In this document: positions 25,268 through 38,594 of the stretch, one piece after another
Position numbering within the stretch: position 1 is the first letter of the stretch
Layout: each line of letters starts with the position of its first letter
DNA from: a virus
Taxonomy: Duplodnaviria > Heunggongvirae > Uroviricota > Caudoviricetes
Direction: 5' to 3' (one strand)
IMG/VR virus record: IMGVR_UViG_3300012942_000037
Coordinates: 13,245-77,244 of that record
Length of the DNA: 64,000 nt
Made by a program: the position numbers and the translations under genes
The notes under the pieces: model-generated
Database searches by the model: none
Seen by the model: the letters and a program-made list of their open reading frames with translations, nothing else
Told to the model about the DNA's origin: nothing

Positions 25268-26241
25268 CCAAAGCGGCAGTTAGGAAGGGTGATAAGTGTA
25301 CAGGCCATGGTGACGCCAAACCACGGCCTTGTGACCAGGGATCACCAGATACATTCATCAACGGTAAGGCGGCGCATCGGCAAGGTGATCATTGGGCTGT
25401 ACATAAGAGCCATGATAGCCACCTAGCCAAGGGCTCTGATTGTGTTTTCGTGAACGGTAAGGGTCAGGGTAGAGTTGGTGATCCGATCCTTTGTGGCTCC
25501 AGGTGTCAACAAGGTAGCCCGAATGTCTTTGTAGGTGATAACAGCTCTAGTGGCACTTCTAGCCAGAGTAGCCAGGGTGCCGCTTCAGCACCTATTGATT
25601 ATTCAAATCCATACCGCTTTGAAGGCGGAGCGGGTGCGAATGGTTATTCAGGTTCTGGCACCATTGAAACTGAAGGTGGTGTCACGGGTGCTACTGATGA
25701 TGCCCCTCCAGCATCTGATCCTGATTCACAAGAACCGCTAGATGCGAGTGATGATGATGTTGATTGGCTTACTACGTGTATGATTGACGAGGCAGGCAAT
25801 CAGAGCCAGAAGGATGCCTGGGCCGCGGTTGCCGCTGTAGTGGTGGATCGCCTTCAAACTGGTAAAGCAACTGGTACAGTCAATCCAGCATGGAAGGGGA
25901 CGATCAAAGGAATAGTTTTGGCTAATGGTCAGTTTTCAGGCTTCTACTTTGAGATGATCAACCGCAAATATACCAGAGTCGTAGCTAGCAAGGATTGGGC
26001 TGCGGCCGAGAAACGTGGTAAGCAGAAAATGGCCGCTTATCGGAAGCGATCTCAATGGAATGCCTTTCATGAGGTAGCCCAGCAGGTAGTTAGCGGAACA
26101 TATAATGGAGGAGCGGCATGGCGACTTGTGAAGAGCAGACCAGCCCTCATGTATTGTAATTTGGCTATCTCGAATCCACCCTGGGCTACCCAGAGCAAAT
26201 ATGTGACTAAGATTGAGGATCACACGTTCTTCTTAGCTTGA
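25264..26241 (+). CDS. PAAR-like tail-tip protein fused to a SleB-type cell-wall hydrolase domain
   Basis: The N-terminus has GDKCTGHGD...FINGKAAHRQGD...FVNGKGQGRVGD repeats, which are PAAR-like. The C-terminus has DEAGNQ...AVAAVVVDRL...NGQFSGF, a Hydrolase_2/SleB-like signature. The ATG overlaps the upstream stop (ATGA). Confidence 0.55.
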   Translation: MTKAAVRKGDKCTGHGDAKPRPCDQGSPDTFINGKAAHRQGDHWAVHKSHDSHLAKGSDCVFVNGKGQGRVGDPILCGSRCQQGSPNVFVGDNSSSGTSSQSSQGAASAPIDYSNPYRFEGGAGANGYSGSGTIETEGGVTGATDDAPPASDPDSQEPLDASDDDVDWLTTCMIDEAGNQSQKDAWAAVAAVVVDRLQTGKATGTVNPAWKGTIKGIVLANGQFSGFYFEMINRKYTRVVASKDWAAAEKRGKQKMAAYRKRSQWNAFHEVAQQVVSGTYNGGAAWRLVKSRPALMYCNLAISNPPWATQSKYVTKIEDHTFFLA

Positions 26242-26266
26242 CATCTTGGTGCTTTGTTGCTATATA
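26238..26266 (+). promoter_or_regulatory. sigma70-like promoter for the tmRNA gene
   Basis: TTGACA, a 17-nt spacer, then TATATA. Confidence 0.6.
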
Positions 26267-26272
26267 GATGAT

Positions 26273-26337
26273 GCTATTGAAGACCGAAGCCTAGTATCGA
26301 CTAGCGGACGCGGGGGCAGTACCCGCCAGGTCCACCA
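26273..26337 (+). ncRNA. ssrA: tmRNA acceptor piece of a permuted, two-piece ssrA
   Basis: It ends GGACGCGGGGGCAGUACCCGCCAGGUCCACCA: a T-arm-like hairpin, the 3' acceptor strand CAGGUCC, then ACCA. The 5' end is approximate. Confidence 0.6.
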
Positions 26338-26504
26338 TAGCAAGTGACCTAGGAGCACTCAGAGCAATCTGGGCGGCGCCAAAACCACTGAGGGAATCGA
26401 AGGATCTCAACCGGATCTGGGTCCTGAGGATGGTATGAGGAAGGGTGGATGAAAGTGGGGCACCGCGGAAGGCCTCATGAGTAAGGTAAGTCACTTGCTT
26501 TGCT

Positions 26505-26700
26505 GGGCCTGAACTAGGATCGACGTGGAAGAGAACGGCAGAGAGAAGATCCAGGCAACTGGTGAAGCGATGGTGAGGGTGGCTCCTCTAAAAGGCCACG
26601 CAGAATACCTGCAAACGACAACACTGTCGAGGTTGCGCTCGCTGCCTAAGGTAGCGCGGGTAACCGCCTAAAGTCTTAGGGCTTCGACTCCTTAAGCGCG
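26505..26700 (+). ncRNA. ssrA: tmRNA coding piece of a permuted ssrA, with tag ORF 26609..26647
   Basis: It starts GGGCCUGAACUAGGAUCGACGUGG (compare E. coli GGGGCUGAUUCUGGAUUCGACGGG). Its GGGCCUG pairs with the upstream CAGGUCC and includes a G3-U wobble. From the resume GCA the tag reads ANDNTVEVALAA-stop. GGCUUCG at 26678 pairs with CGAAGCC at 26285. The 3' end is approximate. Confidence 0.65.
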
Positions 26701-26900
26701 GTATGGTTCCACCGGGCAACAGAACGGGCCACTCTTCCTGATACTCTTGACCTATTGGTAAACTCCGTTACTCTAGAAGGACAACGGGGCAAATCGATAT
26801 GTGACATCAAGTGACTGACTAGATGGGAGTAAACCCACAATAATCTTCATAATACGGGTACGCATCCAGGGCTTAACATCTCCAATTATAGGGGATCTAT

Positions 26901-28610
26901 ATGGCACAGGGTGAACCAGTTGATTTTTCATGGATTAGGCAATCGCTTACCTATGATAAAGCCAGCGAGGACAGAGTGGATAAAGCAATCAAGTCCGACA
27001 TCAATATCAAGATGCTTACCGAACTCGCGCCGACTATCATATGGACGCGGAACGCTAAGTGGGATTTGACCTATATCAACTCATATTGGTTCGAATTCAC
27101 AGGTTGTGAGGATCGTCCAGTCAGAGAGATCAACTGGCAGGAATTCATCCATCCTGATGATCTCAAAGGAGTCACGGATTACTGGAACACAGCTCTTGAA
27201 CTCCAACTTGAGTTCAAGGTTGATCTACGTCTTCGTCGCCGAGATGGTGAATACCGATGGTTCCAATCAGTCGGCCGACCAGTCACCAATCAGGCTGGTG
27301 AAGTTATTCAATGGCTTGGTGTTTCATCGATCATTCAGGACCTCAAAGACGCCCAAGAAGAAACTGAACGCCTCCGTCAGAAACTTGAAGAAAAGGTTCT
27401 CGAGCGTACACGAGCTCTTGAAGAAGCTCAGGCACAGGTTCTCGCCGAAATTAGTGCTCGACAAGCCACCCAGGATGCTCTCCGCCAAGCACAGAAGATG
27501 GAGAGTGTTGGTCAATTAACTGGTGGCATAGCACATGATTTCAACAACATGCTCACTGTGATCATCGGCAATCTCGAACTCCTCAAGATGAGCGCTCCAA
27601 AACTAGGCGATAATCCAGTCGCAAAACGCATGGAGCGGAATGTTAGGATGGCTATTGAGGCATCCATGAAGGCAGAGAAGCTTACCGCTCAGTTGTTGGC
27701 TTTCTCAAGAAAAGCCCGTCTCCAGCTGGAGCGTCTTGATGCCAATGTGGTTGTCATCGGGGTAAAGGAAATGGTCGAGAGAGCTGTTGGTCTTTCAGTT
27801 AGCTGCGACATTAAGATCCAGGAAGACCTATGGCTTTGCTTGAGTGACAAGACCCAGCTTGAAAGCGCAATCATCAATCTAGCTATCAATGCTCGAGATG
27901 CCATGCCGGAAGGCGGTAAACTTTGTATCTCGACTGCCAACAAAGTGATGGAGGATCTCCGCTTTGTTAGCGTTTCAGTCAGTGATACTGGTCTGGGTAT
28001 GAACCAGGAAACTCTGGAGAAGGCTTGTGAACCGTTCTTCACTACCAAGGATGTTGGCAAGGGTTCAGGTCTTGGCCTTTCGATGGTTTACGGTTTCTGC
28101 GAGCAATCAAATGGTAAACTGCTCATCGAGAGCGAAGAGGGCAAGGGCACGATCGTTGAAATGCTCTTCCCCTTCACTGCTGGTGAGACTATCGAAGAGA
28201 CGCAAGCTGAAGAGGATTTCAATTTCGATGCCGCTAAGCAAAGCATCCTAGTAGTGGATGATGAACCAGCGGTCAGAGAGCTGGCCTGCCAATTGCTAAC
28301 TGATGCTGGCTTTAACGTAATCAGCGCTCAAGATGGTCAATCGGCGATTAAGATCATCCAAGACTCCACCATACCGTTGGATCTGCTATTTACAGACATT
28401 GTGATGCCTGGTGGTATTGATGGGTTTGGCTTGGCTAAAATCACCAAACAGGAACGACCCACCCTTCCGATTATTTTCACAACAGGCCATGCGGAGGTCG
28501 CCCTCAAGGAATTGAAGAAGGACCTCACGCAGAAGATCAAGGTGATTGGTAAGCCTTATCGTTTGAATGAGTTGAAGCAGATGATTCTACATGAACTGGC
28601 AATTCAGTAA
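26901..28610 (+). CDS. PAS-containing hybrid histidine kinase (CckA-like: PAS, DHp, CA, REC)
   Basis: PAS domain ([18 protein letters not shown]...[14 protein letters not shown]). H-box [22 protein letters not shown]-box [11 protein letters not shown]-boxes DTGLGM / [10 protein letters not shown]-terminal receiver [12 protein letters not shown]...[10 protein letters not shown]...KPY. Confidence 0.8.
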
Positions 28611-29085: not shown

Positions 29086-29613
29086 ATGATGAGCCTGAAT
29101 GACTTTAAGACTGCGACGACCTTGATTAAGGCTATGGAAGATGGACCCCAATACGTAAGGGTTACTGCTGGATCACGCATTGGAACCATAGGCAGGGTTA
29201 TGATGGTGCGGACCAAATATTACAGCGCTCATGACTATCAGTTGGCTGTGAAAGGTCGGCGCAGCTTTTGGATGAAAGGTAGTGATCTCGAGCATCTACC
29301 TAACCACCGTTCCGGCACTCACTATATTGTCAATCATGAGACCCCTACCTACAACGATCTAATGGGTCGCCGTATTGAGGTAGGTCAGACCATCCTATTC
29401 CCCCGAGGTTGTGAAGGTGCCCGAGTTGATATGGTTATGGGCACCGTACGTCGGATCAGCAACAAAGGGGCGATCTACGCGAAACTCTTCAAGAGTGGCC
29501 AGGGTAATGACCTGGGTGATGGGCTTGTCAGAGTTGGTAAGCCAGGCAGCGCTATGATAATCGATAAGGGCACGACTGATCAGGTAATGTTGGCAAAGTT
29601 GGCCGCGTTCTAA
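29086..29613 (+). CDS. hypothetical protein
   Basis: 175-aa ORF. Confidence 0.45.
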   Translation: MMSLNDFKTATTLIKAMEDGPQYVRVTAGSRIGTIGRVMMVRTKYYSAHDYQLAVKGRRSFWMKGSDLEHLPNHRSGTHYIVNHETPTYNDLMGRRIEVGQTILFPRGCEGARVDMVMGTVRRISNKGAIYAKLFKSGQGNDLGDGLVRVGKPGSAMIIDKGTTDQVMLAKLAAF

Positions 29614-29625
29614 GAAAGGGAGTCT

Positions 29626-30000
29626 ATGTCGAATGGTCGTATTCTTCTAGTTGAAGATGAGCCAATGCTCCACTTCCTTTGGGAAGACATGTGTGCGATC
29701 AGTGATTTCGAAATAGCCTTTACTGCGATGACCTGTCAAGAAGCCATGGCCTACTTCCAGGATCATCATGCTGAACTATCGGGTGTGATCCTTGATGTGA
29801 ACCTCCACGGGGAAACAAGCGGCCCAGTCGCGGAATATCTCAAACTGCTATCCATACCAGTTATTGTTTCAACAGGTAGCCATCCTGATTCATTACCAGA
29901 AATCTTCAGGGGCTGGCCAACCCTCATGAAGCCATATAGGCCACATGATATAACTGGTATCCTGCCGTCTTTGGCCTTCTGTAAGCAAATAGTCAGGTAA
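29626..30000 (+). CDS. stand-alone receiver (REC) domain protein
   Basis: LLVEDEP acidic pocket, a candidate phospho-acceptor Asp in GVILDVNL, then VSTGS and the conserved MKPY. There is no output domain. Confidence 0.55.
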   Translation: MSNGRILLVEDEPMLHFLWEDMCAISDFEIAFTAMTCQEAMAYFQDHHAELSGVILDVNLHGETSGPVAEYLKLLSIPVIVSTGSHPDSLPEIFRGWPTLMKPYRPHDITGILPSLAFCKQIVR

Positions 30001-30151
30001 CCGCTCCTACATTCCGCTTGCGTCACTTGCTGATTTCAATCATATAGTGTGAGCGTGATGCTGTCCCTCAACAGAGCACGTTGGGGTCTGGTGGTGAGAG
30101 GGGGCTAACTTCTCATCAACCAGACCCCGTCAGTCTGGCTAAGTAGATCGT

Positions 30152-30454
30152 ATGGCAGACGATCTATTTCAATGGCCTCAACCCAACACGACCGTCGTAA
30201 ACCTCAAAGAGGAACACTATGACGTTCGTATTGATCGCAAGACCAAATGGGGAAATCCATTCGTAGTTGGGCGAGACGGCACCCGCGAGGAATGTATCAG
30301 CCAGTTCGCCGATTGGATTGTGGAACAATCTCACCTCATGGAAGCTCTACATGAGCTCAAGGGCAAGCGTCTGGGTTGTTGGTGTCATCCCCAAGCATGT
30401 CATGGTAACGTGCTAGCCAAGTTGGCAGATGCGAGTAGGGTTCCTACCAAATAA
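30152..30454 (+). CDS. hypothetical protein (DUF4326-like)
   Basis: KWGNPF...CWCHPQACHG. Confidence 0.45.
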   Translation: MADDLFQWPQPNTTVVNLKEEHYDVRIDRKTKWGNPFVVGRDGTREECISQFADWIVEQSHLMEALHELKGKRLGCWCHPQACHGNVLAKLADASRVPTK

Positions 30455-30494: not shown

Positions 30495-31127
30495 ATGGAC
30501 TTCATGGCATTCCTCACCGCTCCGCAGAATCTGGCGTTCCTAATAGCTGGCATTCTCGTCATGGCTATCTTCATCATCGAGTTCCTAGGAACGATGGTTG
30601 GTTTCTCACTGAGTCACCTGGGACCCGACTTCCATATTGACCTAGATCATGATGGCACTCCTGATCATCTTGAGGGTGCTAGCCTTATGGGCTGGCTCAA
30701 CCCAGGCGGTGTGCCGTTCATGATTTTTATCACCCTGGGGGTGACGATCTTTGCGATTATTGGTTATGCCATTCAGGCAGTTACCTGGTCCTACACAGCG
30801 TATTTGCTGTCAGGATTGATCATTGGTCCGATCTCATTCTTATTGATGCTCATATGCGTCCGCCCTTTGACTCGTTGGGTGAACAAGATCCTGCCTAGGG
30901 AGGAGAGTAGCGATGTCAGTCTCAATAGCCTAATTGGTGAGACTGGTGTAGTGACCGTGGGCCCTGTAACCAAAGGTCAATTTGGTTTCATTCGGGTCCG
31001 CGACAAGTTTGGTACTGATCATTCGATCCAGGTCGAAGCAAGCAATGATGAGGTGTTTGCGATTGGTTCTGAAGTTCAACTGGTTGGGCCTCACCCAACC
31101 AATCTGTATGCGTATCTAATCCGCTAA
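30495..31127 (+). CDS. NfeD-like membrane protein (membrane anchor plus C-terminal OB-fold)
   Basis: Multiple TM helices are followed by GETGVVTV...GFIRV..., an OB-fold-like C-terminus. It lies directly upstream of the SPFH gene. The ORF track begins at 30465. Confidence 0.6.
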   Translation: MDFMAFLTAPQNLAFLIAGILVMAIFIIEFLGTMVGFSLSHLGPDFHIDLDHDGTPDHLEGASLMGWLNPGGVPFMIFITLGVTIFAIIGYAIQAVTWSYTAYLLSGLIIGPISFLLMLICVRPLTRWVNKILPREESSDVSLNSLIGETGVVTVGPVTKGQFGFIRVRDKFGTDHSIQVEASNDEVFAIGSEVQLVGPHPTNLYAYLIR

Positions 31128-31139
31128 CTGGAGAATACA

Positions 31140-32876
31140 ATGTCCATCAAGTTCATTGGCTTGCTGGTCGGGCTGGCTGTCGTAGGATTCCTGATCCTCG
31201 GCATGATCATCACCCGGCTCTATAAGCGAGCTTCCAAGGAAACTGCTTTTGTCCGCACCGGTATGGGCGGTCAGAAGGTGATCAAGGATGGCGGCGCCCT
31301 CGTCATTCCAGTCGTTCATGAAACCCTCGACATTAACATGCAGACTCTTCGTCTGTCGGTTAATCGTGGTGGTCAGAATGACTCGCTTATTACCAAGGAT
31401 CGTCTGCGTGTTGACGTGAACGCTGAGTTTTACGTTCGTGTTGCTCCAGATACCGAGAGCATTGCTACTGCGGCTCAGACGCTTGGTAAGCGCACCATGG
31501 ATCCAAGTCAGCTAAGCACCCTCGTTGAGGGCAAGTTCGTTGACGCTTTGCGAGCCGCCGCTGCTTCGATGGATATGCAGGATCTGCATGAGAAGCGCAC
31601 TGAGTTCGTTCAGAAGGTCAAGACCACTGTTGCCGAGGATCTGAAGCAGAATGGTCTCGAGCTTGAGTCAGTCAGCCTGACCAACTTGAACCAGACTGAC
31701 ATCAGTCACTTCGATGCCAACAATGCTTTCGATGCTGAGGGTCTCGCGGTGATCGCCAAGGTCACCAACGCGCGCCGTAAGGAACGCAACGACATCGAGA
31801 AGCAGACCGAGGTTGAAATCGAGACTAAGAACCTCGAGACTACCAAGGCGACGCTGGCTCTGAAGCAGGATGGTGAGTTCGCCCGCCTGGATCAGGAGAA
31901 GCAGGTTCAGACTCGTGCTGCTGAGCAGGAATCGCAGCTTGCTATTGCTCGTGCCGAGCGTGAGCGGGAAGCACAGGTCGCTGCAGAATCAGCGAAGCAG
32001 GCGTCGGAGCAGGCTCGTATTGAACGCGAGCGCGGTGTCAAGGTGGCACAGACCCAGGCCGACCAGGATACTGAATTGGCTGCTCAGGCCTCGCGTATTG
32101 CGGTTGCCGAGAAGTCCGAGGCAGAGTCGAAGGCCAAGGCGAAGGCTGACGAAGCTCGCGCTGAAGCTACCAGGGCTGCTGAAAACGTAACTACCGTTTC
32201 GGCGACTGCTCGGGCGGATCGTGAAGCCCAGATTGCCGTTATTGCGGCAGAGGGTGAAGCGAAGCAGAAGGCAGCTAGTGTCACGGTTCAGGCCGAGGCT
32301 GAGCTCAAGGCTGCTGATTCACAGGCGAGGGCTAAGGAACGCCTTGCTGACGCAGACGCCAAGCGCTACCAGGTCGAATCCGAGGGTCAGCGTTCCATCC
32401 ATGAGGCTGGTAACGTAATCAGCCCTGAGAGCATGAACTTCCAGCTTCGGAAGGCCATGGTCGAGCGCCTGCCAGAAATCATCGAAGCGATGACCCGTCC
32501 AATCGAGAAGATTGACAGCTTCCGCGTCGTTCATATGAATGGCGGGCTGGGCACTGGTCAGACCAATGGTGAGGCTGGTTCGGTTGCGGAGAAGGGTAAT
32601 CTGCCAACGCAGATGACCAACGCGCTGCTGGATTATCGGATGCAGTCTCCGTTCGTAGACGCCCTGGGCAAGGAACTCGGTATCGACTTCTCCAAGGGCA
32701 TGAACGGCATGATGGAAGCGGCGGGCCTCTCCGTTGAGGTCTCGGATCTTCCGGAAGAGGTGGTCAAGCCATCCATTCCGAATGAAGCTGCTCAGCCGGT
32801 TACTACTCGTGAAGCCCCATTGGCACCCGAGGATAAGGCTGAAATCCAGAAGCTTGCTGGGATCGCCAACGGCTGA
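31140..32876 (+). CDS. flotillin-like SPFH/band-7 protein (YqiK/FloT-like)
   Basis: An N-terminal TM helix is followed by an SPFH domain and then a long Ala/Glu/Gln coiled coil (EAQ.. repeats). Length is 578 aa. Confidence 0.8.
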   Translation: MSIKFIGLLVGLAVVGFLILGMIITRLYKRASKETAFVRTGMGGQKVIKDGGALVIPVVHETLDINMQTLRLSVNRGGQNDSLITKDRLRVDVNAEFYVRVAPDTESIATAAQTLGKRTMDPSQLSTLVEGKFVDALRAAAASMDMQDLHEKRTEFVQKVKTTVAEDLKQNGLELESVSLTNLNQTDISHFDANNAFDAEGLAVIAKVTNARRKERNDIEKQTEVEIETKNLETTKATLALKQDGEFARLDQEKQVQTRAAEQESQLAIARAEREREAQVAAESAKQASEQARIERERGVKVAQTQADQDTELAAQASRIAVAEKSEAESKAKAKADEARAEATRAAENVTTVSATARADREAQIAVIAAEGEAKQKAASVTVQAEAELKAADSQARAKERLADADAKRYQVESEGQRSIHEAGNVISPESMNFQLRKAMVERLPEIIEAMTRPIEKIDSFRVVHMNGGLGTGQTNGEAGSVAEKGNLPTQMTNALLDYRMQSPFVDALGKELGIDFSKGMNGMMEAAGLSVEVSDLPEEVVKPSIPNEAAQPVTTREAPLAPEDKAEIQKLAGIANG

Positions 32877-32957
32877 TACGGCCCTAGTAGAGCGCTACAG
32901 GGTGGGCTGGTAGAAATACCAGCCCATTCCTGTCTGAGTCTTTCTGTTGTAGACATT

Positions 32958-33650
32958 ATGGAATGTATCGCCCATACTGGTCCTAGATCAATGAGGGATA
33001 GCATGTCAGGCCGTTTAGCTAAGATCGTTTCTTTGGGTGGAGTAGCTTGTGTCTTCACGGGTGGTATGATCACCCTCCCCTTTCACCAACTCAGTGACCT
33101 CGCCATTAGCTTACCATTATCTCTGATTACCGGCGCGGGTATTTGGCATTTCTGGCCGGGCCATCTACCAGCCAAACCAGACGTCGAACAACTATTCAGC
33201 GACCAGGAAGCTCTTAAGAGAGCTGGCGTGAGCAAGGCAGAGAGTATTGAAACTATCAGGCTGGTCAGTAACAAGCTAGATCACATCCTCATGTGTGCGG
33301 CTCAGATCAACGATCCAAAGATCACTCGTCGCATCCAAGCCCTTGATACCATTGGCAGGAAGATCATTGCTGACTTCCGCCAGAACCCCACAGGTATCAA
33401 ACAAGCTCAAACATGGATCCATGCCTATTTGGATCAGACCATCGATTGTGTGGATCAATACGCACAACTCCATATGACCAAAGTGCGTAATGATGAAATT
33501 CGCCGTCAGATGGTGGAATTTGAAGACATGCTTGTTGAGCTCCAGGAGAAGTCACAGGAATTGCTGGATAGGCTCCTATCCGCAGATACCACGACCTTTG
33601 AAGTCAATGTTTCAGTGTTTCGTGATATGATGAAGAACGAGGGAATCTAA
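32958..33650 (+). CDS. XpaC-like protein (5-bromo-4-chloroindolyl phosphate hydrolysis protein family)
   Basis: An N-terminal membrane anchor is followed by a helical domain. Adjacency to a TelA-like gene mirrors the Bacillus yaaN-xpaC arrangement. The start is uncertain. Confidence 0.4.
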   Translation: MECIAHTGPRSMRDSMSGRLAKIVSLGGVACVFTGGMITLPFHQLSDLAISLPLSLITGAGIWHFWPGHLPAKPDVEQLFSDQEALKRAGVSKAESIETIRLVSNKLDHILMCAAQINDPKITRRIQALDTIGRKIIADFRQNPTGIKQAQTWIHAYLDQTIDCVDQYAQLHMTKVRNDEIRRQMVEFEDMLVELQEKSQELLDRLLSADTTTFEVNVSVFRDMMKNEGI

Positions 33651-34810
33651 TGACCGAGGCTACTATGACACAAACCACGCCGACCCTAGCGCCTGAGACG
33701 GTTCAGACATTGGGTTCAACCTCGTTGGTTAGTTTGGCGCCAGCCAATACCGCCATCCAGATCACGAGTGTGCCAGAGGCACGCGCCAAGGAATTGGCAC
33801 AGAAGATCAACATCCATGACACCCAGAGTATCATTGGCTTCGGTGTTGAGGCTCAAAAGAGCGTTAGCCAGGTCAGTGATCAAATGCTTGACGGGGTTCG
33901 CACCAAGGATACCGGTCCGGCCGGAGAAGCTCTGAACCTCATGGTTCATGAGATGCGGGGTCTTGATTTCAGCAAGTTGAGTGAGAAGCCTGGTTTGATT
34001 TCACGCCTCCTCCGCAAGGCGGGTAAGGTGTCATTGTTCCTTGAGCAATATGAGACAGTTCAGGCTAAGATCAATAAGACCCAAGCGGTTCTCGATGGTC
34101 ATCGTATTCAGATGCTCCGAGGCGTGAAGATGCTTGATCTACTATACAACAAGACACTTGACCTGTTGTATAGCCTGGATGAGCAGATTGCTGCCGTTCA
34201 ATACAAACTCAATGAGGTCAACACCACTGATATTCCGGCTGCTAATGAGAAGGCCCAGCAAACCAGGGATATGGCAGATACCCAGGCAGTCTCGGATTTG
34301 ATTCAGGCTCGCGATGCTCTGGAGCGTAAACTCCATGATCTCCAGCTGACCAGGCAGATTACGATCCAAGCCTTACCTAGCATCCGTATTGTTCAATCCA
34401 ATGAGGTCGGGCTTTCAGAGAAGATCCAATCACAGATCCTCAATGCTTTGCCTCTTTGGAAGCGCAACATGGCTCTTGCTGTGGAGATGGCCAAGACACA
34501 GAATGCCGCCAAGGCCACCAAGGCGGCTGCTGATTTCACAAACGAGCAGCTTCGCATTGGTGCCACAATGCTTCAGCAATCCAACCAAGCCGTTCGAACC
34601 GAGGTGGAACGTGGTATTGTTGATGTGGATAGCGTCAAGTTTGCTAATGACCAGCTGATCCAGACCATCGAGGATACGATTGAGATTGCTCAGCAGGGTA
34701 AGGATATGCGAGCTCATGCTGAGCAGGAACTCGCCGAGGCTGAGCAGAAGCTCAAGGAGACCCTGCTTAGTGCGGCAAACCGTCATGCCAATATGAAGGC
34801 TTTGGCATGA
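33650..34810 (+). CDS. TelA-like (toxic anion resistance family) protein
   Basis: The 386-aa all-helical, coiled-coil-rich architecture and conserved spacing fit TelA/KlaB/YaaN-type proteins. Confidence 0.55.
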   Translation: MTEATMTQTTPTLAPETVQTLGSTSLVSLAPANTAIQITSVPEARAKELAQKINIHDTQSIIGFGVEAQKSVSQVSDQMLDGVRTKDTGPAGEALNLMVHEMRGLDFSKLSEKPGLISRLLRKAGKVSLFLEQYETVQAKINKTQAVLDGHRIQMLRGVKMLDLLYNKTLDLLYSLDEQIAAVQYKLNEVNTTDIPAANEKAQQTRDMADTQAVSDLIQARDALERKLHDLQLTRQITIQALPSIRIVQSNEVGLSEKIQSQILNALPLWKRNMALAVEMAKTQNAAKATKAAADFTNEQLRIGATMLQQSNQAVRTEVERGIVDVDSVKFANDQLIQTIEDTIEIAQQGKDMRAHAEQELAEAEQKLKETLLSAANRHANMKALA

Positions 34811-35280
34811 GGCTCTTATCGCTCCTTTCTCTAATGGGGCTTGGTGGTGGGATTCTCTTGCTCTTGGCTGTGCTTTTGATGGCGAACTCATCCGCCAAAT
34901 TACCACAGGCCGACAAGTTTGGATCGCATTATATCAAGGTTGATCACGTCTACGACGGCGATACCTTCTACTTCAGAATGCCAGGTAGTTGGCCCGAACT
35001 CAGCATGGTAGGGGTTCGGGTCTTGGGCATCGATGCTCCTGAGAAGCGTGGGCGATGCGCTGCTGAACGTCAGAGGGCTAATGAGGCTAAGCTGGCCGCC
35101 CAAACCTTCCTTAGTAGAGGTCCGGTTGAACTCCGTAATGTGCGCTGGGACAAATACGGAGGCCGGATAGAGGCCGATGTTCTGGTTGACGGCCAAAGCC
35201 TCTCCAGTTACATGATCAGCCAGAAGTTAGCTCGACCCTATCATGGTGAGCACAGGGATAAACTGGAGTGGTGCCGATGA
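34807..35280 (+). CDS. secreted thermonuclease (SNase-like)
   Basis: There is a signal/TM peptide, then YDGDTF...RVLGIDAPE and a downstream R...R/KYG motif. Confidence 0.7.
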   Translation: MRLLSLLSLMGLGGGILLLLAVLLMANSSAKLPQADKFGSHYIKVDHVYDGDTFYFRMPGSWPELSMVGVRVLGIDAPEKRGRCAAERQRANEAKLAAQTFLSRGPVELRNVRWDKYGGRIEADVLVDGQSLSSYMISQKLARPYHGEHRDKLEWCR

Positions 35281-35774
35281 CTGAGAAGTTCACCCTATTC
35301 TATGGAGGTCCAGCAAGTCAATGGGCTCCGGGTAACTTCACAGTCGATGGTGTGGTCTATAACTGTGCTGAGCAGTTCATGATGGCCGAGAAGGCTCGGT
35401 TGTTTGGTGACGATGATGCTCTGAAGATCATCATGGAGACAACTAATCCAAAGATCCAAAAAGCAACTGGCCGACTAGTCAGGAACTTTGACCTGGAGAA
35501 ATGGAATCTGAATCGCAAGCTGATCGTATATCGAGGTAATTTTGCGAAGTTCAGTCAGATCAAAGATTACCAGGCCTGGTTGTTGGCAACGGATGGCACA
35601 ACCCTAGTCGAGGCTAGCCCCTGGGACACTATTTGGGGTATCGGTTTGGATGAAGGCGATCCAAAGGCACGTGATAGATCCACTTGGCTAGGGTCTAACG
35701 ATCTCGGTGAGATTGTGACTCAGGTCAGAGAAGAGATCAAACAACTAATCTCGCATGGCTTGATGAGCGCATAA
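35276..35774 (+). CDS. NADAR / YbiA-like (DUF1768) domain protein
   Basis: FYGG...WAPGNF.V.G..Y...EQFMMAEKARLFGD is the characteristic NADAR N-terminus. The ATG overlaps the upstream stop. Confidence 0.7.
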
Positions 35775-36230
35775 ATGGAGTCAATCCATGACATCCGAGA
35801 TCGCTACGCTAGGGAGATAGTCAAAAGACTTTGGATATGTCGCAATCTCTACCGTAGACACAAGCTAGCTACGCTTGGTGATGAATGGGATTTCGAGAAG
35901 ATCACGCCTTATGAAAAAGGGCGTATGACCCGCGAGGGGAACCGATTGGGTGGCTACCTATTGCTGCTCAATCAATCACCCCAGGATCAGAAGATCGTAA
36001 CCTGGTTCTCCACCTACGCTTGGGTAACTGGCATTAAACCTAACCTTTTCGAGAAGCCAGGCAACCATGTCTGGACTACCTTGATATCAAAGGCCTCTGA
36101 GAGCGTTGAGAAATTCGAAATCAATGTCGGCCAGGCTCAACAGATCTTCGAAACGATTGATGCTATCCTGGATACTCCAATAAGCCAAGCCAGTAACCGT
36201 TTTATGCTTTTGAAATTGAGCATCCTTTAA
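35775..36230 (+). CDS. hypothetical protein
   Basis: 151-aa ORF. Confidence 0.45.
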   Translation: MESIHDIRDRYAREIVKRLWICRNLYRRHKLATLGDEWDFEKITPYEKGRMTREGNRLGGYLLLLNQSPQDQKIVTWFSTYAWVTGIKPNLFEKPGNHVWTTLISKASESVEKFEINVGQAQQIFETIDAILDTPISQASNRFMLLKLSIL

Positions 36231-36299: not shown

Positions 36300-37544
36300 A
36301 TGGGACGTCCAGTTAATAAGCACATTCTTACGAGAATGGTAGCTATTGCCAAGATTGGCACAAATGATGAAGATACAGCCACTCTCCTAAAGCAGAAGGG
36401 TGAGAAGCGATTTCTTGTAACCGTCGGAAGTCATACCGGCCTTGTAGTTCTAGTTGACAAAGAGCCTGGAACGCTAGCTGCTGGTGAGATGGTTGTTAAG
36501 GTGGAGAACGCCGATGGTGATACTTTCAACGTCGTGAAGCTCTACAACCGTACAGCCATTCTTTCGGATGGTTCTCATCATGCTTGGGATTTCACCAATG
36601 CTGTTGATGAGAAGGTTCAGATGATTGATACTGTTGAAGCGCCCACTCCAGTAATCACGATTACGGCCCAGCCAGCTAGCCAAACCTTCAACCCAGGCGA
36701 TGAGCTTTCGTTCACTGTAACCGCTTCTAGCTCTAGTGGTAAGCCTTTGACCTTCACTTGGCAGTATGCCACCGGTGGTAGCAGCACTTTCTCAGATGTT
36801 GATTTCGGTAATCTCCTCGGTAGTGGTGGTACCTCAATCCTGGGTAACGTCTCGACAGAAACTGAGAGCAATGGTCTTCAGATCCGTTGCGTTGTGAGTT
36901 CTGAGGGCGCCGCAGACGTCGTATCAGATGTTGCCACTTTGACTCTACTGGCCCCAGTGATCACAATCACTGGTCAGCCCACGGCTCAGGAATCATATGA
37001 TATTGGCTCCTCGGCCAACTTCTTCATCAGTGCTTCGGTCACCGGAGGGGCTACGCTATCATATCAGTGGCAGACTGCCCCATCGGGATCTTCGACATTC
37101 ACTGATATCGATGAAGCAACTGATACCGAATACACCACGCATCAGCTTACCTCAGACGATGATGGTGTCCAGCTTCGTTGCGTAGTTAGCGCAACTGGTG
37201 GAGCCGAATCAGTAACATCAAATGAGGTTACGATTCACATGCCAGCCACTCCAGTGATCACGATCACAAGTCAGCCAGAATCCGCCGAGGTAGATGAGGG
37301 TGCTCCAGTTGAATTCAGTGTGACAGCCAGTGTTACCGAAGGTGCGACACTTAGCTACAATTGGCAGTCGAGACTAGGTGAAGGTATCTACATGGATACC
37401 GGTGGAACCGAAGCAACCTACAGCATTGCGGGTGTGTCAGCGGACAACAGTGGCACGGTCTTCCGTTGTATCGTAAGTGCGACAGGTGGTGCTGCTAATG
37501 TCACTTCGGATGAAGCAACTCTAACAGTCGACCCAGCACCGTAA
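36300..37544 (+). CDS. structural protein with three tandem Ig-like repeats
   Basis: Approximately 100-aa repeats each begin PVITIT(A/G/S)QP. Its N-terminal domain is shared with the 37623 protein. A CTAAATA motif lies at 36253. Confidence 0.55.
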   Translation: MGRPVNKHILTRMVAIAKIGTNDEDTATLLKQKGEKRFLVTVGSHTGLVVLVDKEPGTLAAGEMVVKVENADGDTFNVVKLYNRTAILSDGSHHAWDFTNAVDEKVQMIDTVEAPTPVITITAQPASQTFNPGDELSFTVTASSSSGKPLTFTWQYATGGSSTFSDVDFGNLLGSGGTSILGNVSTETESNGLQIRCVVSSEGAADVVSDVATLTLLAPVITITGQPTAQESYDIGSSANFFISASVTGGATLSYQWQTAPSGSSTFTDIDEATDTEYTTHQLTSDDDGVQLRCVVSATGGAESVTSNEVTIHMPATPVITITSQPESAEVDEGAPVEFSVTASVTEGATLSYNWQSRLGEGIYMDTGGTEATYSIAGVSADNSGTVFRCIVSATGGAANVTSDEATLTVDPAP

Positions 37545-37622: not shown

Positions 37623-38594
37623 GTGGGCCGTCCAGTAGACAAACAGTTCTTTGGTCCAGATGCCATTCAATGTATCGCCAATGTAGGTGATGGTGAGGCC
37701 ACTGGATATATCGTTAAACAAACCGCTTCGAGTGAGTTCCTGGTTAATGCTGGTGGCACGGAGAAGAAGTGCCATCTAGTCAATAAGGCTCCAGCCGATC
37801 TAGAAGTTGGTGAGATGGTTATCACGGTTCAATTGGCCGATGATTCTGTCGTTACTGTGAAAACCCTCAAGGGTCACAAGCTCACAACTTCAACGGGTAG
37901 TCAGGTTGTTTGGAATACTGGCGTGACCAGCAACCCCGCACCAGCCGCTGTTAGCACAAGTGATGATGTGGTGCCCTTCCCCGACGCCACACCAGTTACT
38001 CCTACTGTAGTGGAGAATGGTTCGATCTCTACCAAGTTCACTGCTAACAGCCGTATGCTTGTTGGAACTGGTAACCCAATCAACAACATGATGGTAGCCA
38101 GCGATGGCGTGATCGAAGTGGCTATTGGTGCTCATCTGTACAATGACGGTAACGTCCTTCCATCCACTGATGGCAAATACACCCTACAGCTCGCAACAGG
38201 AATCACGGATAGCAAGGGCAATCCGAAGGATAACAAGTGGGTCTATGCGTTCAGCATTGGCTTGAAGCAGAATCCAAACCTCAAGGCTATCACTGATCTC
38301 TATGATGTCACAGCTAGCCTTAAGAAAGATGATGCTGAGGTTGCTACGCTAACTCTGGAGAAGGTTGATGACAGCCTCCAGTTTGTATTTGGTATTGCTG
38401 ATAACACGCCAATCGTCGATAGCTATGTAGGTGCTCACCTGGATGTTATCCAGAATGCTGAGCGTTTCGACTTCATCGATTCATCCTATACCGATGGCAA
38501 CTATGCGGTTTCATTCACCGCAACTCCAAAGGCGGAAGGTGGTGCTCCTGTTACCGCATCCTTCACCGTAGAGGTTGCTGCTCCTCTAGCTTAA
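37623..38594 (+). CDS. structural protein, N-terminal paralog of the 36300 protein
   Basis: It starts at a GTG with an AAGGAG ribosome-binding site. MGRPVDKQ...GEMVITV... parallels MGRPVNKH...GEMVVKV... A CTAAATA motif lies at 37585. Confidence 0.5.
   Translation: MGRPVDKQFFGPDAIQCIANVGDGEATGYIVKQTASSEFLVNAGGTEKKCHLVNKAPADLEVGEMVITVQLADDSVVTVKTLKGHKLTTSTGSQVVWNTGVTSNPAPAAVSTSDDVVPFPDATPVTPTVVENGSISTKFTANSRMLVGTGNPINNMMVASDGVIEVAIGAHLYNDGNVLPSTDGKYTLQLATGITDSKGNPKDNKWVYAFSIGLKQNPNLKAITDLYDVTASLKKDDAEVATLTLEKVDDSLQFVFGIADNTPIVDSYVGAHLDVIQNAERFDFIDSSYTDGNYAVSFTATPKAEGGAPVTASFTVEVAAPLA

What the first reader, a model, noticed from the sequence alone, without database searches (positions are those of the whole stretch)
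30495..35774. Membrane module NfeD - flotillin (SPFH) - XpaC-like - TelA-like, then a secreted SNase and a NADAR protein
NfeD/SPFH pairs scaffold membrane microdomains, and TelA/XpaC pairs (Bacillus yaaN-xpaC) are membrane-stress and toxic-anion-resistance proteins. Both are classic bacterial operons and unexpected in a lytic phage. Co-directional, tightly packed genes (31140 immediately follows 31127; 33650 overlaps 33650) suggest one transcription unit. It continues into a signal-peptide thermonuclease and a NADAR domain, a family implicated in reversing ADP-ribosylation. Possible roles are membrane remodelling for replication or assembly, superinfection exclusion, or counter-defence.
Basis: partly seen in the sequence, partly recalled or inferred. 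Interest (0 to 1): 0.65.

Follow-up and report, generated by a model that had tools for sequence, protein, structure and literature searches.

The report
Jumbo-phage flotillin plus TelA membrane cassette
A family of giant (about 460-480 kb) bacteriophages has inherited and kept four bacterial membrane-maintenance genes (a flotillin with its NfeD-type partner, and TelA with its anchor XpaC), probably to keep the infected cell's membrane intact. The idea can be tested in the cultured relative, Sinorhizobium phage Phosso.

Summary
All six family assignments hold: YqiJ (the NfeD-type partner), YqiK-type flotillin, XpaC (PF10112), TelA, an exported SNase and NADAR.

The window is a fragment of a jumbo phage. 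Its closest isolates are Sinorhizobium phage Phosso and Agrobacterium phage Atu_ph07, and it encodes an alphaproteobacterial tmRNA.

The four-gene core, YqiJ-Flot-XpaC-TelA, keeps the same order in Phosso, in eight IMG/VR contigs and in a 481-kb scaffold. About 30 further metagenomic contigs appear to carry both a flotillin and a TelA of this clade. The genes are under purifying selection (dN/dS 0.05-0.17). The phage flotillins and TelAs each form a clade that excludes the named bacterial homologues. This is old, functional phage cargo, not a recent pickup.

It is not one transcription unit. A covarying terminator hairpin followed by a sigma-70-like promoter separates YqiJ-Flot from XpaC-TelA in every phage locus. 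SNase and NADAR belong to the second unit only in the window's clade. NADAR pairs functionally with the upstream DUF4326 in ADP-ribose processing.

Bacteria have related operons (PspA-YqiJ-Flot; TelA-X-YqiJ-Flot). None of the 80 closest bacterial loci has the phage order.

Best reading, inferred: a membrane-homeostasis cassette that protects the host inner membrane during a long infection. Superinfection exclusion is the main rival. Moderately interesting, and a new variant of a known kind.

The parts
29086..29613 (+). 175-aa soluble protein of unknown family; possible fifth member of the cassette
   Evidence: No Pfam hit. A homologue lies directly upstream of YqiJ in Phosso (CDS 490, 28% identity, E 2e-17). 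It is upstream of the block in all clade loci at 68-93% identity.
30152..30454 (+). DUF4326 protein, predicted to process ADP-ribose-derived phosphates. It flanks the block and is the functional partner of NADAR, not of the membrane genes.
   Evidence: Pfam DUF4326 2.3e-28. 80-94% identical across the clade and not detected by tblastn in the 25-kb Phosso stretch. The literature reports frequent fusion to NADAR, Macro and SLOG domains (PMC7824862, PMC9503650).
30495..31127 (+). YqiJ-family (NfeD-type) membrane partner of the flotillin
   Evidence: YqiJ_N 3.5e-20 and YqiJ_OB 2.5e-9. Three hydrophobic stretches. dN/dS 0.086 against L090. YqiJ is described as the NfeD homologue of the yqiK operon (PMC2636767).
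31140..32876 (+). YqiK-type flotillin (SPFH2): N-terminal anchor, SPFH domain, Ala/Glu-rich coiled coil, Flot domain
   Evidence: Band_7 1.9e-19 and Flot 1.6e-32. Hydrophobic residues 1-29. 48% identical to Phosso CDS 492 and 44-50% to bacterial YqiK-type proteins. dN/dS 0.078.
32897..32933 (+). Intrinsic-terminator-like hairpin ending the YqiJ-Flot unit. The U-tract is weak in the window and stronger in relatives.
   Evidence: MFE -27.5 kcal/mol, z = -5.4. Present in all 8 phage loci including Phosso. 11 of 14 pairs show compensatory changes.
32949..32978 (+). Sigma-70-like promoter for the XpaC-TelA unit: invariant GTAGAC(A) as the -35, then 16-17 nt, then a -10 (CATACT here; TATAAC, TATAAA or TAATAT in relatives)
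   Evidence: Flagged by the scan. GTAGAC is invariant in all 8 aligned loci. The -10 elements were read from the sequences.
33003..33650 (+). XpaC-family membrane protein (PF10112): N-terminal hydrophobic region plus a cytoplasmic helical bundle. Presumed anchor or regulator of TelA.
   Evidence: Halogen_Hydrol 5.6e-20. Start taken from P0241. The AF2 model has helices across residues 61-193, with pLDDT about 70-87 from residue 81. It is the fastest-evolving member, with dN/dS 0.17.
33650..34810 (+). TelA (toxic-anion-resistance family): soluble, all-helical, long coiled-coil bundle
   Evidence: TelA 1.8e-88, profile positions 2-331 of 332. phrog_5890 3e-45. The AF2 model is all-helical, with helices of 81, 95 and 58 residues. 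dN/dS 0.054.
34807..35280 (+). Exported staphylococcal-nuclease-fold endonuclease, in the same operon in the window's clade only
   Evidence: SNase 3.4e-6 and phrog_452 7e-14. An N-terminal signal-peptide-like segment is present here and in orthologues; one orthologue has a lipobox-like LGAC. Active-site equivalents are kept: D52, R71, D76, E79, R120. Not detected in the 25-kb Phosso stretch.
35277..35774 (+). NADAR (bare YbiA-type domain), a likely reverser of nucleic-acid ADP-ribosylation
   Evidence: NADAR 2.2e-44. TIGR02464 2.8e-44. PDC-M42C 5.9e-36. PDB 8BAU 8e-14 and YbiA 2B3W 7.5e-6, with the E..K and D.xWG motifs aligned.
35775..36230 (+). 151-aa protein of unknown family whose start abuts the NADAR stop; hypervariable
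   Evidence: No Pfam or PHROG hit. The junction is TAAATG. Only 27-36% identical even in L090, where the neighbouring genes are 65-94% identical.

Best explanation
The block is a vertically inherited membrane-homeostasis cassette of a clade of roughly 460-480 kb jumbo phages. It is built from two bacterial envelope modules placed side by side as two transcription units.

Unit 1 is YqiJ plus a YqiK-type flotillin. Inserted in the host inner membrane, it would form SPFH scaffolds, that is, microdomains or cages, with the NfeD-type partner bound.

Unit 2 has its own host-type promoter. It encodes the membrane protein XpaC, which tethers or restrains TelA, a long coiled-coil protein that lies under the membrane.

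Together they would reorganise and stabilise the host cytoplasmic membrane. The membrane would then stay sealed and energised through a long infection, despite injection damage, membrane-attacking host defences, competing phages or premature holin firing.

In the window's clade the second unit also carries an exported nuclease and a NADAR enzyme, making this stretch a small conflict island.

Shown: gene identities, conservation, purifying selection, clades of phage flotillins and TelAs that exclude the bacterial genome homologues (unbootstrapped NJ), and the two-unit architecture. Inferred: membrane localisation, physical partnerships, timing of expression and the benefit to the phage.
For: - Identities: Pfam, PHROG and NCBIfam hits and membrane topology.
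- Phage context: DnaB, RNR, T4-type topoisomerase II and a virion protein. Closest isolates are Phosso and Atu_ph07.
- Conservation: the same order YqiJ-Flot-XpaC-TelA, plus the g29086 homologue, in Phosso, in 8 IMG/VR contigs and in a 481-kb scaffold with independent Pfam calls. Thirty 'longest contig' lengths are shared between the flotillin and TelA hit lists.
- Selection: dN/dS 0.05-0.17.
- Phylogeny: NJ trees place all known-phage flotillins in a clade of 74 sequences that contains none of the 80 bacterial genome loci. TelA behaves likewise, in a clade of 67.
- Two units: a covarying terminator plus a conserved promoter. The two halves also have different histories: L091 TelA is 82% identical but its flotillin only 57%.
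- Functional analogy from bacteria: upstream of YqiJ-Flot there is PspA in 21 of 80 loci and a TelA in 8 of 80, so TelA occupies the operon slot of the membrane-repair protein PspA. An XpaC-TelA pair is followed by an SPFH protein in a gammaproteobacterial MAG.
- Literature:
  - YqiJ is the NfeD partner of YqiK (PMC2636767).
  - PspA associates with Band 7/FloT and NfeD (PMC9239133).
  - An SPFH protein recruits PspA to the membrane (PMC8581546).
  - xpaC-telA changes phospholipid microdomains and daptomycin binding, and XpaC acts only when TelA is present (PMC6811118).
  - A telA mutant is sensitive to nisin, and the operon is induced together with the Psp response (PMC12791056).
Against: - There is no experimental datum for any phage copy.
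- The molecular functions of bacterial flotillins and of TelA are themselves unresolved.
- Atu_ph07, the next closest isolate, gave no flotillin hit. The cassette is therefore accessory, not essential to this phage type.
- The TelA model is only medium confidence (pLDDT 68). It matches generic long helical bundles, with no PspA/ESCRT-III protein among the top 60 hits. The PspA analogy therefore rests on operon position only.
- The bacterial TelA that sits beside YqiJ-Flot belongs to a different, very divergent subfamily (BLASTP E 2.9).
- The promoter is a consensus match, not a mapped transcription start.
- The trees are unbootstrapped NJ trees.
Confidence: 0.4

Rival explanations
1. Superinfection exclusion. 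The flotillin lattice and the sub-membrane TelA layer block genome entry by a second phage, and the exported nuclease destroys DNA stranded in the periplasm.
For: A survey of 224 jumbo phages interpreted TelA and Ter components as sub-membrane structures that prevent phage entry and serve competition with superinfecting phages (PMC7824862). An exported, apparently active SNase is translationally coupled to TelA in the window's clade. A host-type promoter is compatible with early expression.
Against: Phosso keeps the four membrane genes without the nuclease at that site. No known exclusion protein family is matched (PHROG and PADLOC). No exclusion activity has been shown for TelA or for any flotillin.
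Confidence: 0.2
2. Control of lysis timing. By stiffening the membrane or keeping it energised, the cassette raises the threshold for holin triggering and so lengthens the productive period of a very large phage.
For: PspA-like envelope modules maintain proton-motive force, and TelA takes the PspA slot beside YqiJ-Flot in bacteria. In another jumbo-phage contig (L096), TelA lies directly downstream of a glucosaminidase-domain protein that resembles a lysin.
Against: No holin or endolysin lies next to the block in the window. The L096 link is a single case.
Confidence: 0.1
3. A host-fitness gene set (moron) that raises the tolerance of an infected, carrier-state or pseudolysogenic cell to toxic anions and membrane-active antimicrobials.
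For: TelA and XpaC phenotypes in bacteria are resistance to tellurite, nisin and daptomycin. PHROG files the TelA family under 'moron, auxiliary metabolic gene and host takeover'. The jumbo-phage survey raises the same idea.
Against: No integrase or lysogeny module was seen among the window proteins scanned. The genome type is a large virulent-looking myovirus-like phage.
Confidence: 0.1
4. Membrane remodelling for the phage's own replication or assembly, for example forming or stabilising internal vesicles or membrane-attached factories.
For: Flotillins scaffold microdomains. XpaC-TelA alters phospholipid domain distribution. The cassette is specific to very large genomes.
Against: Nothing in the sequence points to it. 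No structural or replication gene is coupled to the block. The related phage Atu_ph07 gave no flotillin hit.
Confidence: 0.08
5. A recently captured, non-functional piece of host DNA, or an assembly chimera.
For: GC content is slightly raised (0.53-0.57 at 31-33 kb against about 0.48 elsewhere). The closest non-phage homologues are bacterial.
Against: The same cassette occurs in an isolated phage and in at least 9 independent contigs. dN/dS is 0.05-0.17. Phage sequences form clades that exclude the bacterial genome homologues. None of 80 bacterial loci has this order. The GC rise coincides with the Ala/Glu-rich coiled coil of the flotillin.
Confidence: 0.02

Closest known systems
E. coli yqiJ-yqiK operon (SPFH2a flotillin with its NfeD-type partner); B. 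subtilis yuaF-floT
   Same: The same two families in the same order. The small multi-pass protein with a C-terminal OB-fold sits directly upstream of a flotillin with an N-terminal anchor, an SPFH domain, a coiled coil and a Flot domain (PMC2636767).
   Different: It is encoded by a virus. Identity to the closest bacterial proteins is only 44-51%. It is below the cutoff of the FloT equivalog model (68 against 700 bits). It is followed by XpaC-TelA, which none of the 80 bacterial loci has.
xpaC-telA (yaaN) envelope-stress operon of Bacillus, Listeria and Enterococcus, and its proteobacterial counterparts
   Same: The same two families in the same order with close coupling. The proteobacterial pairs in L008 and L009 are the nearest TelA relatives, at about 41-45% identity.
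   Different: The phage XpaC is shorter (215 aa against 276-324) and diverges fast. The pair is joined to a flotillin operon and, in this clade, extended by SNase, NADAR and an unknown gene.
Bacterial PspA-YqiJ-Flot and TelA-X-YqiJ-Flot operons (for example Gilvimarinus algae, Novosphingobium decolorationis)
   Same: They couple a sub-membrane helical stress protein with the YqiJ-flotillin pair: 21 and 8 of 80 loci respectively. The association of PspA with Band 7/FloT and NfeD is published (PMC9239133).
   Different: The stress protein lies upstream, not downstream. That TelA is a different subfamily with no BLASTP similarity. Its 236-aa neighbour has no PF10112 match. No terminator-promoter spacer was examined in those loci.
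Standalone TelA genes of other jumbo phages (Rak2/GAP32/CBB group, Lak phages, Staphylococcus phage S6)
   Same: A TelA-family protein in very large phage genomes (PMC7824862).
   Different: Those copies are only 24-30% identical. Their scanned neighbours show no SPFH or YqiJ and no convincing XpaC; the one exception is a sub-threshold XpaC-like neighbour in L097.
B. subtilis pspA-ydjGHI, where the SPFH protein YdjI recruits PspA to the membrane
   Same: The logic is the same: an SPFH scaffold plus small membrane proteins position a helical membrane-protecting protein (PMC8581546; PMC9239133).
   Different: The families differ throughout: a Band_7_1-type cytosolic SPFH, PspA rather than TelA, and YdjG/H rather than XpaC or YqiJ.

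Membership tests
YqiJ / NfeD-type SPFH partner | N-terminal multi-pass membrane domain (YqiJ_N) | tested here: met
   PF21001 3.5e-20, profile positions 1-116 of 116. Three hydrophobic stretches.
YqiJ / NfeD-type SPFH partner | C-terminal soluble OB-fold domain | tested here: met
   PF07290 YqiJ_OB 2.5e-9, above the cutoff.
YqiJ / NfeD-type SPFH partner | Encoded immediately upstream of an SPFH2-type flotillin | tested here: met
   A 12-nt gap before the flotillin start. The same arrangement holds in 75 of 80 bacterial loci.
Flotillin (YqiK/FloT type, SPFH2) | N-terminal membrane anchor followed by an SPFH/Band 7 domain | tested here: met
   Hydrophobic residues 1-29. Band_7 1.9e-19.
Flotillin (YqiK/FloT type, SPFH2) | C-terminal flotillin domain after a coiled-coil region | tested here: met
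   PF15975 Flot 1.6e-32, profile positions 1-124 of 124. Ala/Glu-rich residues at about 200-400.
Flotillin (YqiK/FloT type, SPFH2) | Equivalence to B. subtilis FloT (NCBIfam equivalog NF058507) | tested here: not met
   68 bits against a cutoff of 700. It is a YqiK-type relative, not a FloT equivalog.
Flotillin (YqiK/FloT type, SPFH2) | Assembly into large membrane-bound oligomers or microdomains | not testable with these tools
   Needs microscopy or biochemistry.
[quoted passage not shown] | Match to the family profile above its gathering score | tested here: met
   72.6 bits against a cutoff of 29.8, profile positions 22-190 of 191.
[quoted passage not shown] | N-terminal membrane segment(s) and position directly upstream of telA | tested here: met
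   Hydrophobic residues 5-27, with a weaker second segment. The TAATG overlap with TelA. The same order holds in L008 and L009.
TelA (PF05816) | Full-length match to the family profile | tested here: met
   297 bits against a cutoff of 30, profile positions 2-331 of 332.
TelA (PF05816) | Soluble all-helical protein | tested here: met
   No hydrophobic segment. The AF2 model is all-helical with a mean pLDDT of 68.
TelA (PF05816) | Confers resistance to tellurite or membrane-active agents | not testable with these tools
   A phenotype known for Listeria and Enterococcus homologues only.
Ter stress-response system (TerZABCDEF) | TelA accompanied by TerB, TerC or TerD family genes | tested here: not met
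   No Ter-family domain among the ten neighbouring proteins scanned. This TelA is of the XpaC-linked type, not part of a Ter operon.
Psp (phage-shock) system | Presence of a PspA/IM30 protein | tested here: not met
Staphylococcal nuclease (SNase) fold | Profile match and retention of the Ca2+-binding and catalytic residues | tested here: met
   PF00565 27.9 bits against a cutoff of 21. D21, R35, D40, E43 and R87 equivalents are kept; T41 is Ala.
NADAR (YbiA fold) | Profile match with the catalytic Glu and the Asp-x-x-Trp-Gly motif | tested here: met
   PF08719 152 bits. The alignment to 8BAU and to YbiA 2B3W keeps E(Q/H)..K and D.xWG. The subfamily-defining residue of the last strand was not mapped.
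Known anti-phage defence systems (PADLOC) | Match of the membrane genes to a defence-system model | tested here: not met
   Only NADAR matched, to the candidate PDC-M42C. The four membrane proteins had no hit.

The most novel reading that the evidence does not exclude
The cassette is a phage-encoded membrane-protection counter-defence. Flotillin/YqiJ scaffolds and XpaC-controlled TelA would patch or shield the host inner membrane against membrane-disrupting abortive-infection effectors and rival phages. It would sit in a conflict island next to enzymes that undo ADP-ribosylation (DUF4326, NADAR) and an exported nuclease. That would be the first viral use of an SPFH/flotillin system and a new class of anti-defence mechanism.
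Probability: 0.15. Interest if true: 0.8.

Novelty: new variant of a known kind. Interest (0 to 1): 0.5.

Why it matters
What bacterial flotillins and TelA/XpaC actually do is still unsettled after many years, partly because the knockout phenotypes reported for TelA/XpaC are modest (a 4-fold nisin shift, for example). Here a virus lineage has kept both modules together under purifying selection. That implies a strong and specific benefit during infection.

One member, Sinorhizobium phage Phosso, is in culture, so deletion, localisation and challenge experiments are possible. A positive result would give a clean phenotype for these protein families. It would also show whether giant phages actively maintain the host membrane, as a counter-defence, as superinfection exclusion, or as control of lysis. 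If nothing comes of it, this is one more host-derived accessory cassette in a jumbo phage.

Tried and rejected
- **Megablast of the 6-kb block against 50,697 phage records:** no match. Relatives are visible only at the protein level.
- **PADLOC:** none of the four membrane proteins matches a defence model.
- **PDB sequence searches:** TelA only an actinin hit at E 0.93, SNase nothing.
- **XpaC AF2 model (4-sequence alignment) searched with Foldseek:** nothing at E <= 0.001.
- **hhalign of the XpaC profile against the TelA profile:** probability 0.7%, so no evidence that the two are homologous.
- **BLASTP of phage XpaC and TelA against the Novosphingobium 236-aa protein and TelA, and of g29086 against the Gilvimarinus 171-aa protein:** no similarity. 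The phage cassette is not a copy of those operons.
- **GTAGAC as a general promoter motif of this phage:** 30 sites against 18.8 expected, but most of the 30 sites fall inside the ORFs listed. A stricter -35/-10 pattern found one other site, no more than chance. Not pursued.
- **Promoter/terminator consensus scan of 28.5-38.7 kb:** counts were at or below the shuffle expectation. It missed the window's hairpin because its U-tract is interrupted.
- **Literature searches for a phage flotillin and for a Phosso paper:** nothing relevant.

Full report
**1. What is there**

Pfam supports every family call:

| Coordinates | Pfam result |
|---|---|
| 30495-31127 | YqiJ_N 3.5e-20 and YqiJ_OB 2.5e-9 |
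| 31140-32876 | Band_7 1.9e-19 and Flot 1.6e-32 |
| 32958-33650 | Halogen_Hydrol (the XpaC family) 5.6e-20 |
| 33650-34810 | TelA 1.8e-88 over the whole profile |
| 34807-35280 | SNase 3.4e-6 |
| 35268-35774 | NADAR 2.2e-44 |

PHROGs adds 'tellurite resistance' (3e-45), 'endonuclease' (7e-14) and an unnamed NADAR family. NCBIfam shows that the flotillin is not a FloT equivalog (68 against 700 bits). It places the NADAR with the YbiA-type domain TIGR02464.

- GGAG lies 7 nt before the flotillin ATG.
- XpaC and TelA overlap as TAATG.
- TelA/SNase and SNase/NADAR each overlap as ATGA.
- NADAR abuts the next gene as TAAATG.

Two start codons need adjusting. XpaC most likely starts at 33003, since the exact-match database record is 215 aa. 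NADAR most likely starts at the ATG at 35277.

Hydropathy fits the expected topologies:
- YqiJ has three hydrophobic stretches.
- The flotillin has an N-terminal anchor.
- XpaC has an N-terminal hydrophobic region.
- TelA has no hydrophobic segment.
- The nuclease has a signal-peptide-like N-terminus.

That last feature recurs in diverged orthologues. Examples are MNKSILTALAGLLAVTTPAALA/AP, and one orthologue with a lipobox-like LGAC.

An alignment to staphylococcal nuclease keeps the equivalents of D21, R35, D40, E43 and R87. The NADAR aligns to PDB 8BAU (8e-14) and to E. coli YbiA with the conserved E..K and D.xWG motifs.

**2. Context**

The window is part of a jumbo phage. It encodes a DnaB-like helicase, a class I ribonucleotide reductase, both T4-type topoisomerase II subunits and a virion structural protein. 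The closest isolate for that structural protein is Sinorhizobium phage Phosso (469 kb; 37% identity over 90% of the protein). Agrobacterium phage Atu_ph07 (490 kb) is next.

The window also carries a two-piece alphaproteobacterial tmRNA (RF01849, 115 bits). This points to an alphaproteobacterial host.

**3. Conservation**

No phage record matches at the DNA level. At the protein level, Phosso has the same four genes in the same order: CDS 491-494, annotated as hypothetical, SPFH, hypothetical and toxic anion resistance. A homologue of window gene 29086-29613 precedes them.

Eight IMG/VR contigs, up to 465 kb, keep a longer block: g29086 ... DUF4326, then YqiJ-Flot-XpaC-TelA-SNase-NADAR. An ENA scaffold of 480,938 bp shows the same series with independently precomputed Pfam labels. 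The flotillin and TelA hit lists share 30 identical 'longest contig' lengths. The two genes therefore travel together on many more metagenomic contigs.

Against the closest relative, L090, dN/dS values are as follows (dS is partly saturated):

| Gene | dN/dS |
|---|---|
| YqiJ | 0.086 |
| Flotillin | 0.078 |
| XpaC | 0.17 |
| TelA | 0.054 |
| SNase | 0.108 |

In NJ trees, all known-phage flotillins, including Phosso's, share a clade of 74 sequences that contains none of the 80 bacterial genome homologues. TelA gives the same picture, with a clade of 67 and no named bacterial sequence.

The cassette is therefore old, inherited and functional in this phage lineage. It is not universal: Atu_ph07 gave no flotillin hit.

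**4. Two transcription units, not one**

The 126-nt spacer between flotillin and XpaC folds into a GC-rich hairpin (-27.5 kcal/mol, z = -5.4). Every related locus, Phosso included, has a hairpin of different sequence at the same place, followed by a T-rich run. In the alignment fold, 11 of 14 pairs show compensatory changes.

Downstream of the hairpin's T-rich run lies an invariant GTAGAC(A). A -10-like hexamer follows 16-17 nt later: CATACT in the window and TATAAC, TATAAA, TATAAG or TAATAT in relatives.

I read this as an intrinsic terminator followed by a host-type promoter. The terminator is probably leaky in the window, where the U-tract is interrupted.

Sequence histories agree with a boundary here. 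L091 has a TelA 82% identical to the window's but a flotillin only 57% and a YqiJ only 37% identical.

SNase, NADAR and a hypervariable 151-aa gene are translationally coupled to TelA in the window. They were not detected in the Phosso stretch examined. They are an add-on of this clade.

**5. Bacterial relatives**

The nearest bacterial flotillins (44-51% identity) are from Sphingomonadales, Acinetobacter, Neisseria, Rheinheimera and others. The 80 closest genome loci break down as follows:

| Architecture | Loci |
|---|---|
| YqiJ-Flot alone | 46 |
| PspA-YqiJ-Flot (15 of them with a further 171-aa protein upstream) | 21 |
| TelA-X-YqiJ-Flot | 8 |
| Flotillin only | 5 |
| Phage order (YqiJ-Flot-XpaC-TelA) | 0 |

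Representative loci are shown.

The TelA of those bacterial operons belongs to a very different subfamily (BLASTP E 2.9). Its 236-aa neighbour has no PF10112 match.

The nearest relatives of the phage TelA (about 41-45% identity) sit in ordinary XpaC-TelA pairs. One such pair is followed by another SPFH protein.

The phage cassette therefore looks like a phage-specific joining of two bacterial modules. Bacteria also tend to associate these modules, and TelA or PspA occupy the same slot beside YqiJ-Flot.

**6. Other phages**

TelA alone is already known in jumbo phages. A published survey of 224 jumbo phages lists it and proposes a role against superinfecting phages. That paper does not contain the words flotillin, SPFH, Band-7 or PspA (PMC7824862).

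Neighbours of TelA in CBB, S6 and three IMG/VR jumbo contigs show no SPFH or YqiJ and at best a sub-threshold XpaC. A full-text search for 'jumbo phage' together with 'flotillin' found two papers, neither about a phage-encoded flotillin, and no Phosso paper was found.

**7. How it probably works (inference)**

What the literature says about these families:
- YqiJ is the NfeD-type partner of YqiK (PMC2636767).
- PspA is found with Band 7/FloT and NfeD, and an SPFH protein recruits PspA to the membrane in B. subtilis (PMC9239133; PMC8581546).
- In E. faecium, deleting xpaC redistributes phospholipid microdomains and increases daptomycin binding, but only if telA is intact. XpaC therefore appears to restrain or direct TelA (PMC6811118).
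- In Listeria, a telA mutant is more sensitive to nisin, and the operon is induced together with the Psp response (PMC12791056).

Putting these together, I propose the following. The flotillin-YqiJ unit lays down SPFH scaffolds in the host inner membrane. The XpaC-TelA unit adds a regulated sub-membrane coiled-coil layer. The net effect is a membrane that stays sealed and energised during a long infection.

Superinfection exclusion, control of lysis timing, a host-fitness moron and membrane remodelling for assembly are rivals that the sequence cannot separate.

Structure prediction did not help. The TelA model is a long helical bundle of medium confidence (pLDDT 68) with only generic matches. 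XpaC's cytoplasmic part is modelled as packed helices with no informative match. The two are not detectably homologous.

**8. The flanking enzymes**

DUF4326 (30152-30454) and NADAR bracket the membrane genes. DUF4326 is reported to be fused repeatedly to NADAR, Macro and SLOG domains and is predicted to process ADP-ribose-derived phosphates. NADARs remove ADP-ribose from guanine, and phage copies can act as orphan antitoxins against DarTG1 (PMC11543638, PMC11125620, PMC11825919).

Together with the exported nuclease and a hypervariable unknown gene, this makes the region look like a conflict island into which the membrane cassette is embedded.

**9. Verdict**

The proteins are clear new members of known families. 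The phage-borne, two-unit arrangement with a flotillin is not described in the literature I could search, and it is absent from the 80 nearest bacterial loci. I rate it a new variant of a known kind, with interest about 0.5.

Its value is practical. It offers a conserved, selectable setting for flotillin and TelA/XpaC function, with a cultured phage (Phosso) available for genetics.

Noticed in passing
window 26234-26733 (+): A phage-encoded two-piece (permuted) alphaproteobacterial tmRNA: Rfam RF01849, 115 bits, E 2e-31; ARAGORN tag peptide ANDNTVEVALAA. It suggests an alphaproteobacterial host, in line with the closest isolates infecting Sinorhizobium and Agrobacterium.
   Followed up: partly
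window 26901-28610 and 29626-30000 (+): A hybrid histidine kinase (PAS, HATPase, receiver) and a separate single-domain receiver protein lie just upstream of the membrane cassette. Both are conserved in related phage contigs (L002, L004, L103). This could be a phage two-component system; bacterial xpaC-telA and psp operons are under two-component control.
   Followed up: partly
window 30152-30454 and 35277-35774 (+): DUF4326 and NADAR are often fused to each other in other viruses. Here they are separate genes that bracket the YqiJ-Flot-XpaC-TelA-SNase block, as if the membrane genes sit inside an ADP-ribose-processing pair.
   Followed up: partly
window 29086-29613 (+); L001 9400-9924: A 175-aa protein with no family match is conserved upstream of the cassette in all relatives and lies directly next to YqiJ in Phosso (28% identity). 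It may be a fifth component.
   Followed up: partly
window 35775-36230 (+): The 151-aa gene that abuts NADAR is only 36% identical in the closest relative (L090), where the neighbouring genes are 65-94% identical. Either it is evolving fast or it has been replaced.
   Followed up: no
L091 versus window (table): There is mosaicism inside the block. L091 TelA is 82% identical to the window's, while its YqiJ (37%), flotillin (57%) and SNase (45%) are as distant as in far relatives. L090 NADAR (65%) is more distant than that of far relatives (70-74%).
   Followed up: partly
L096 5829-6803 and 7001-8011: In a 359-kb IMG/VR contig, a TelA gene lies directly downstream of a glucosaminidase-domain (lysin-like) protein. 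This is a possible link between TelA and cell-envelope or lysis functions.
   Followed up: no
proteins P0003 and P0166: Both are listed with a longest contig of 958,096 bp, but the place retrieved is a 480,938-bp scaffold. 958 kb is close to twice 479 kb, so it is probably an assembly concatemer rather than a megabase phage.
   Followed up: partly
window 36300-37544 and 37623-38594 (+): Two adjacent paralogues share an N-terminal domain of about 100 aa (MGRPV[ND]K...). In the first it is followed by repeated Ig-like segments. They are possibly virion decoration or fibre proteins.
   Followed up: no
window 30084-30129 (+): A 10-bp GC-rich inverted repeat (GGGGTCTGGT ... ACCAGACCCC) with a large loop lies in the spacer before DUF4326. 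It has no T-tract and its role is unknown.
   Followed up: no
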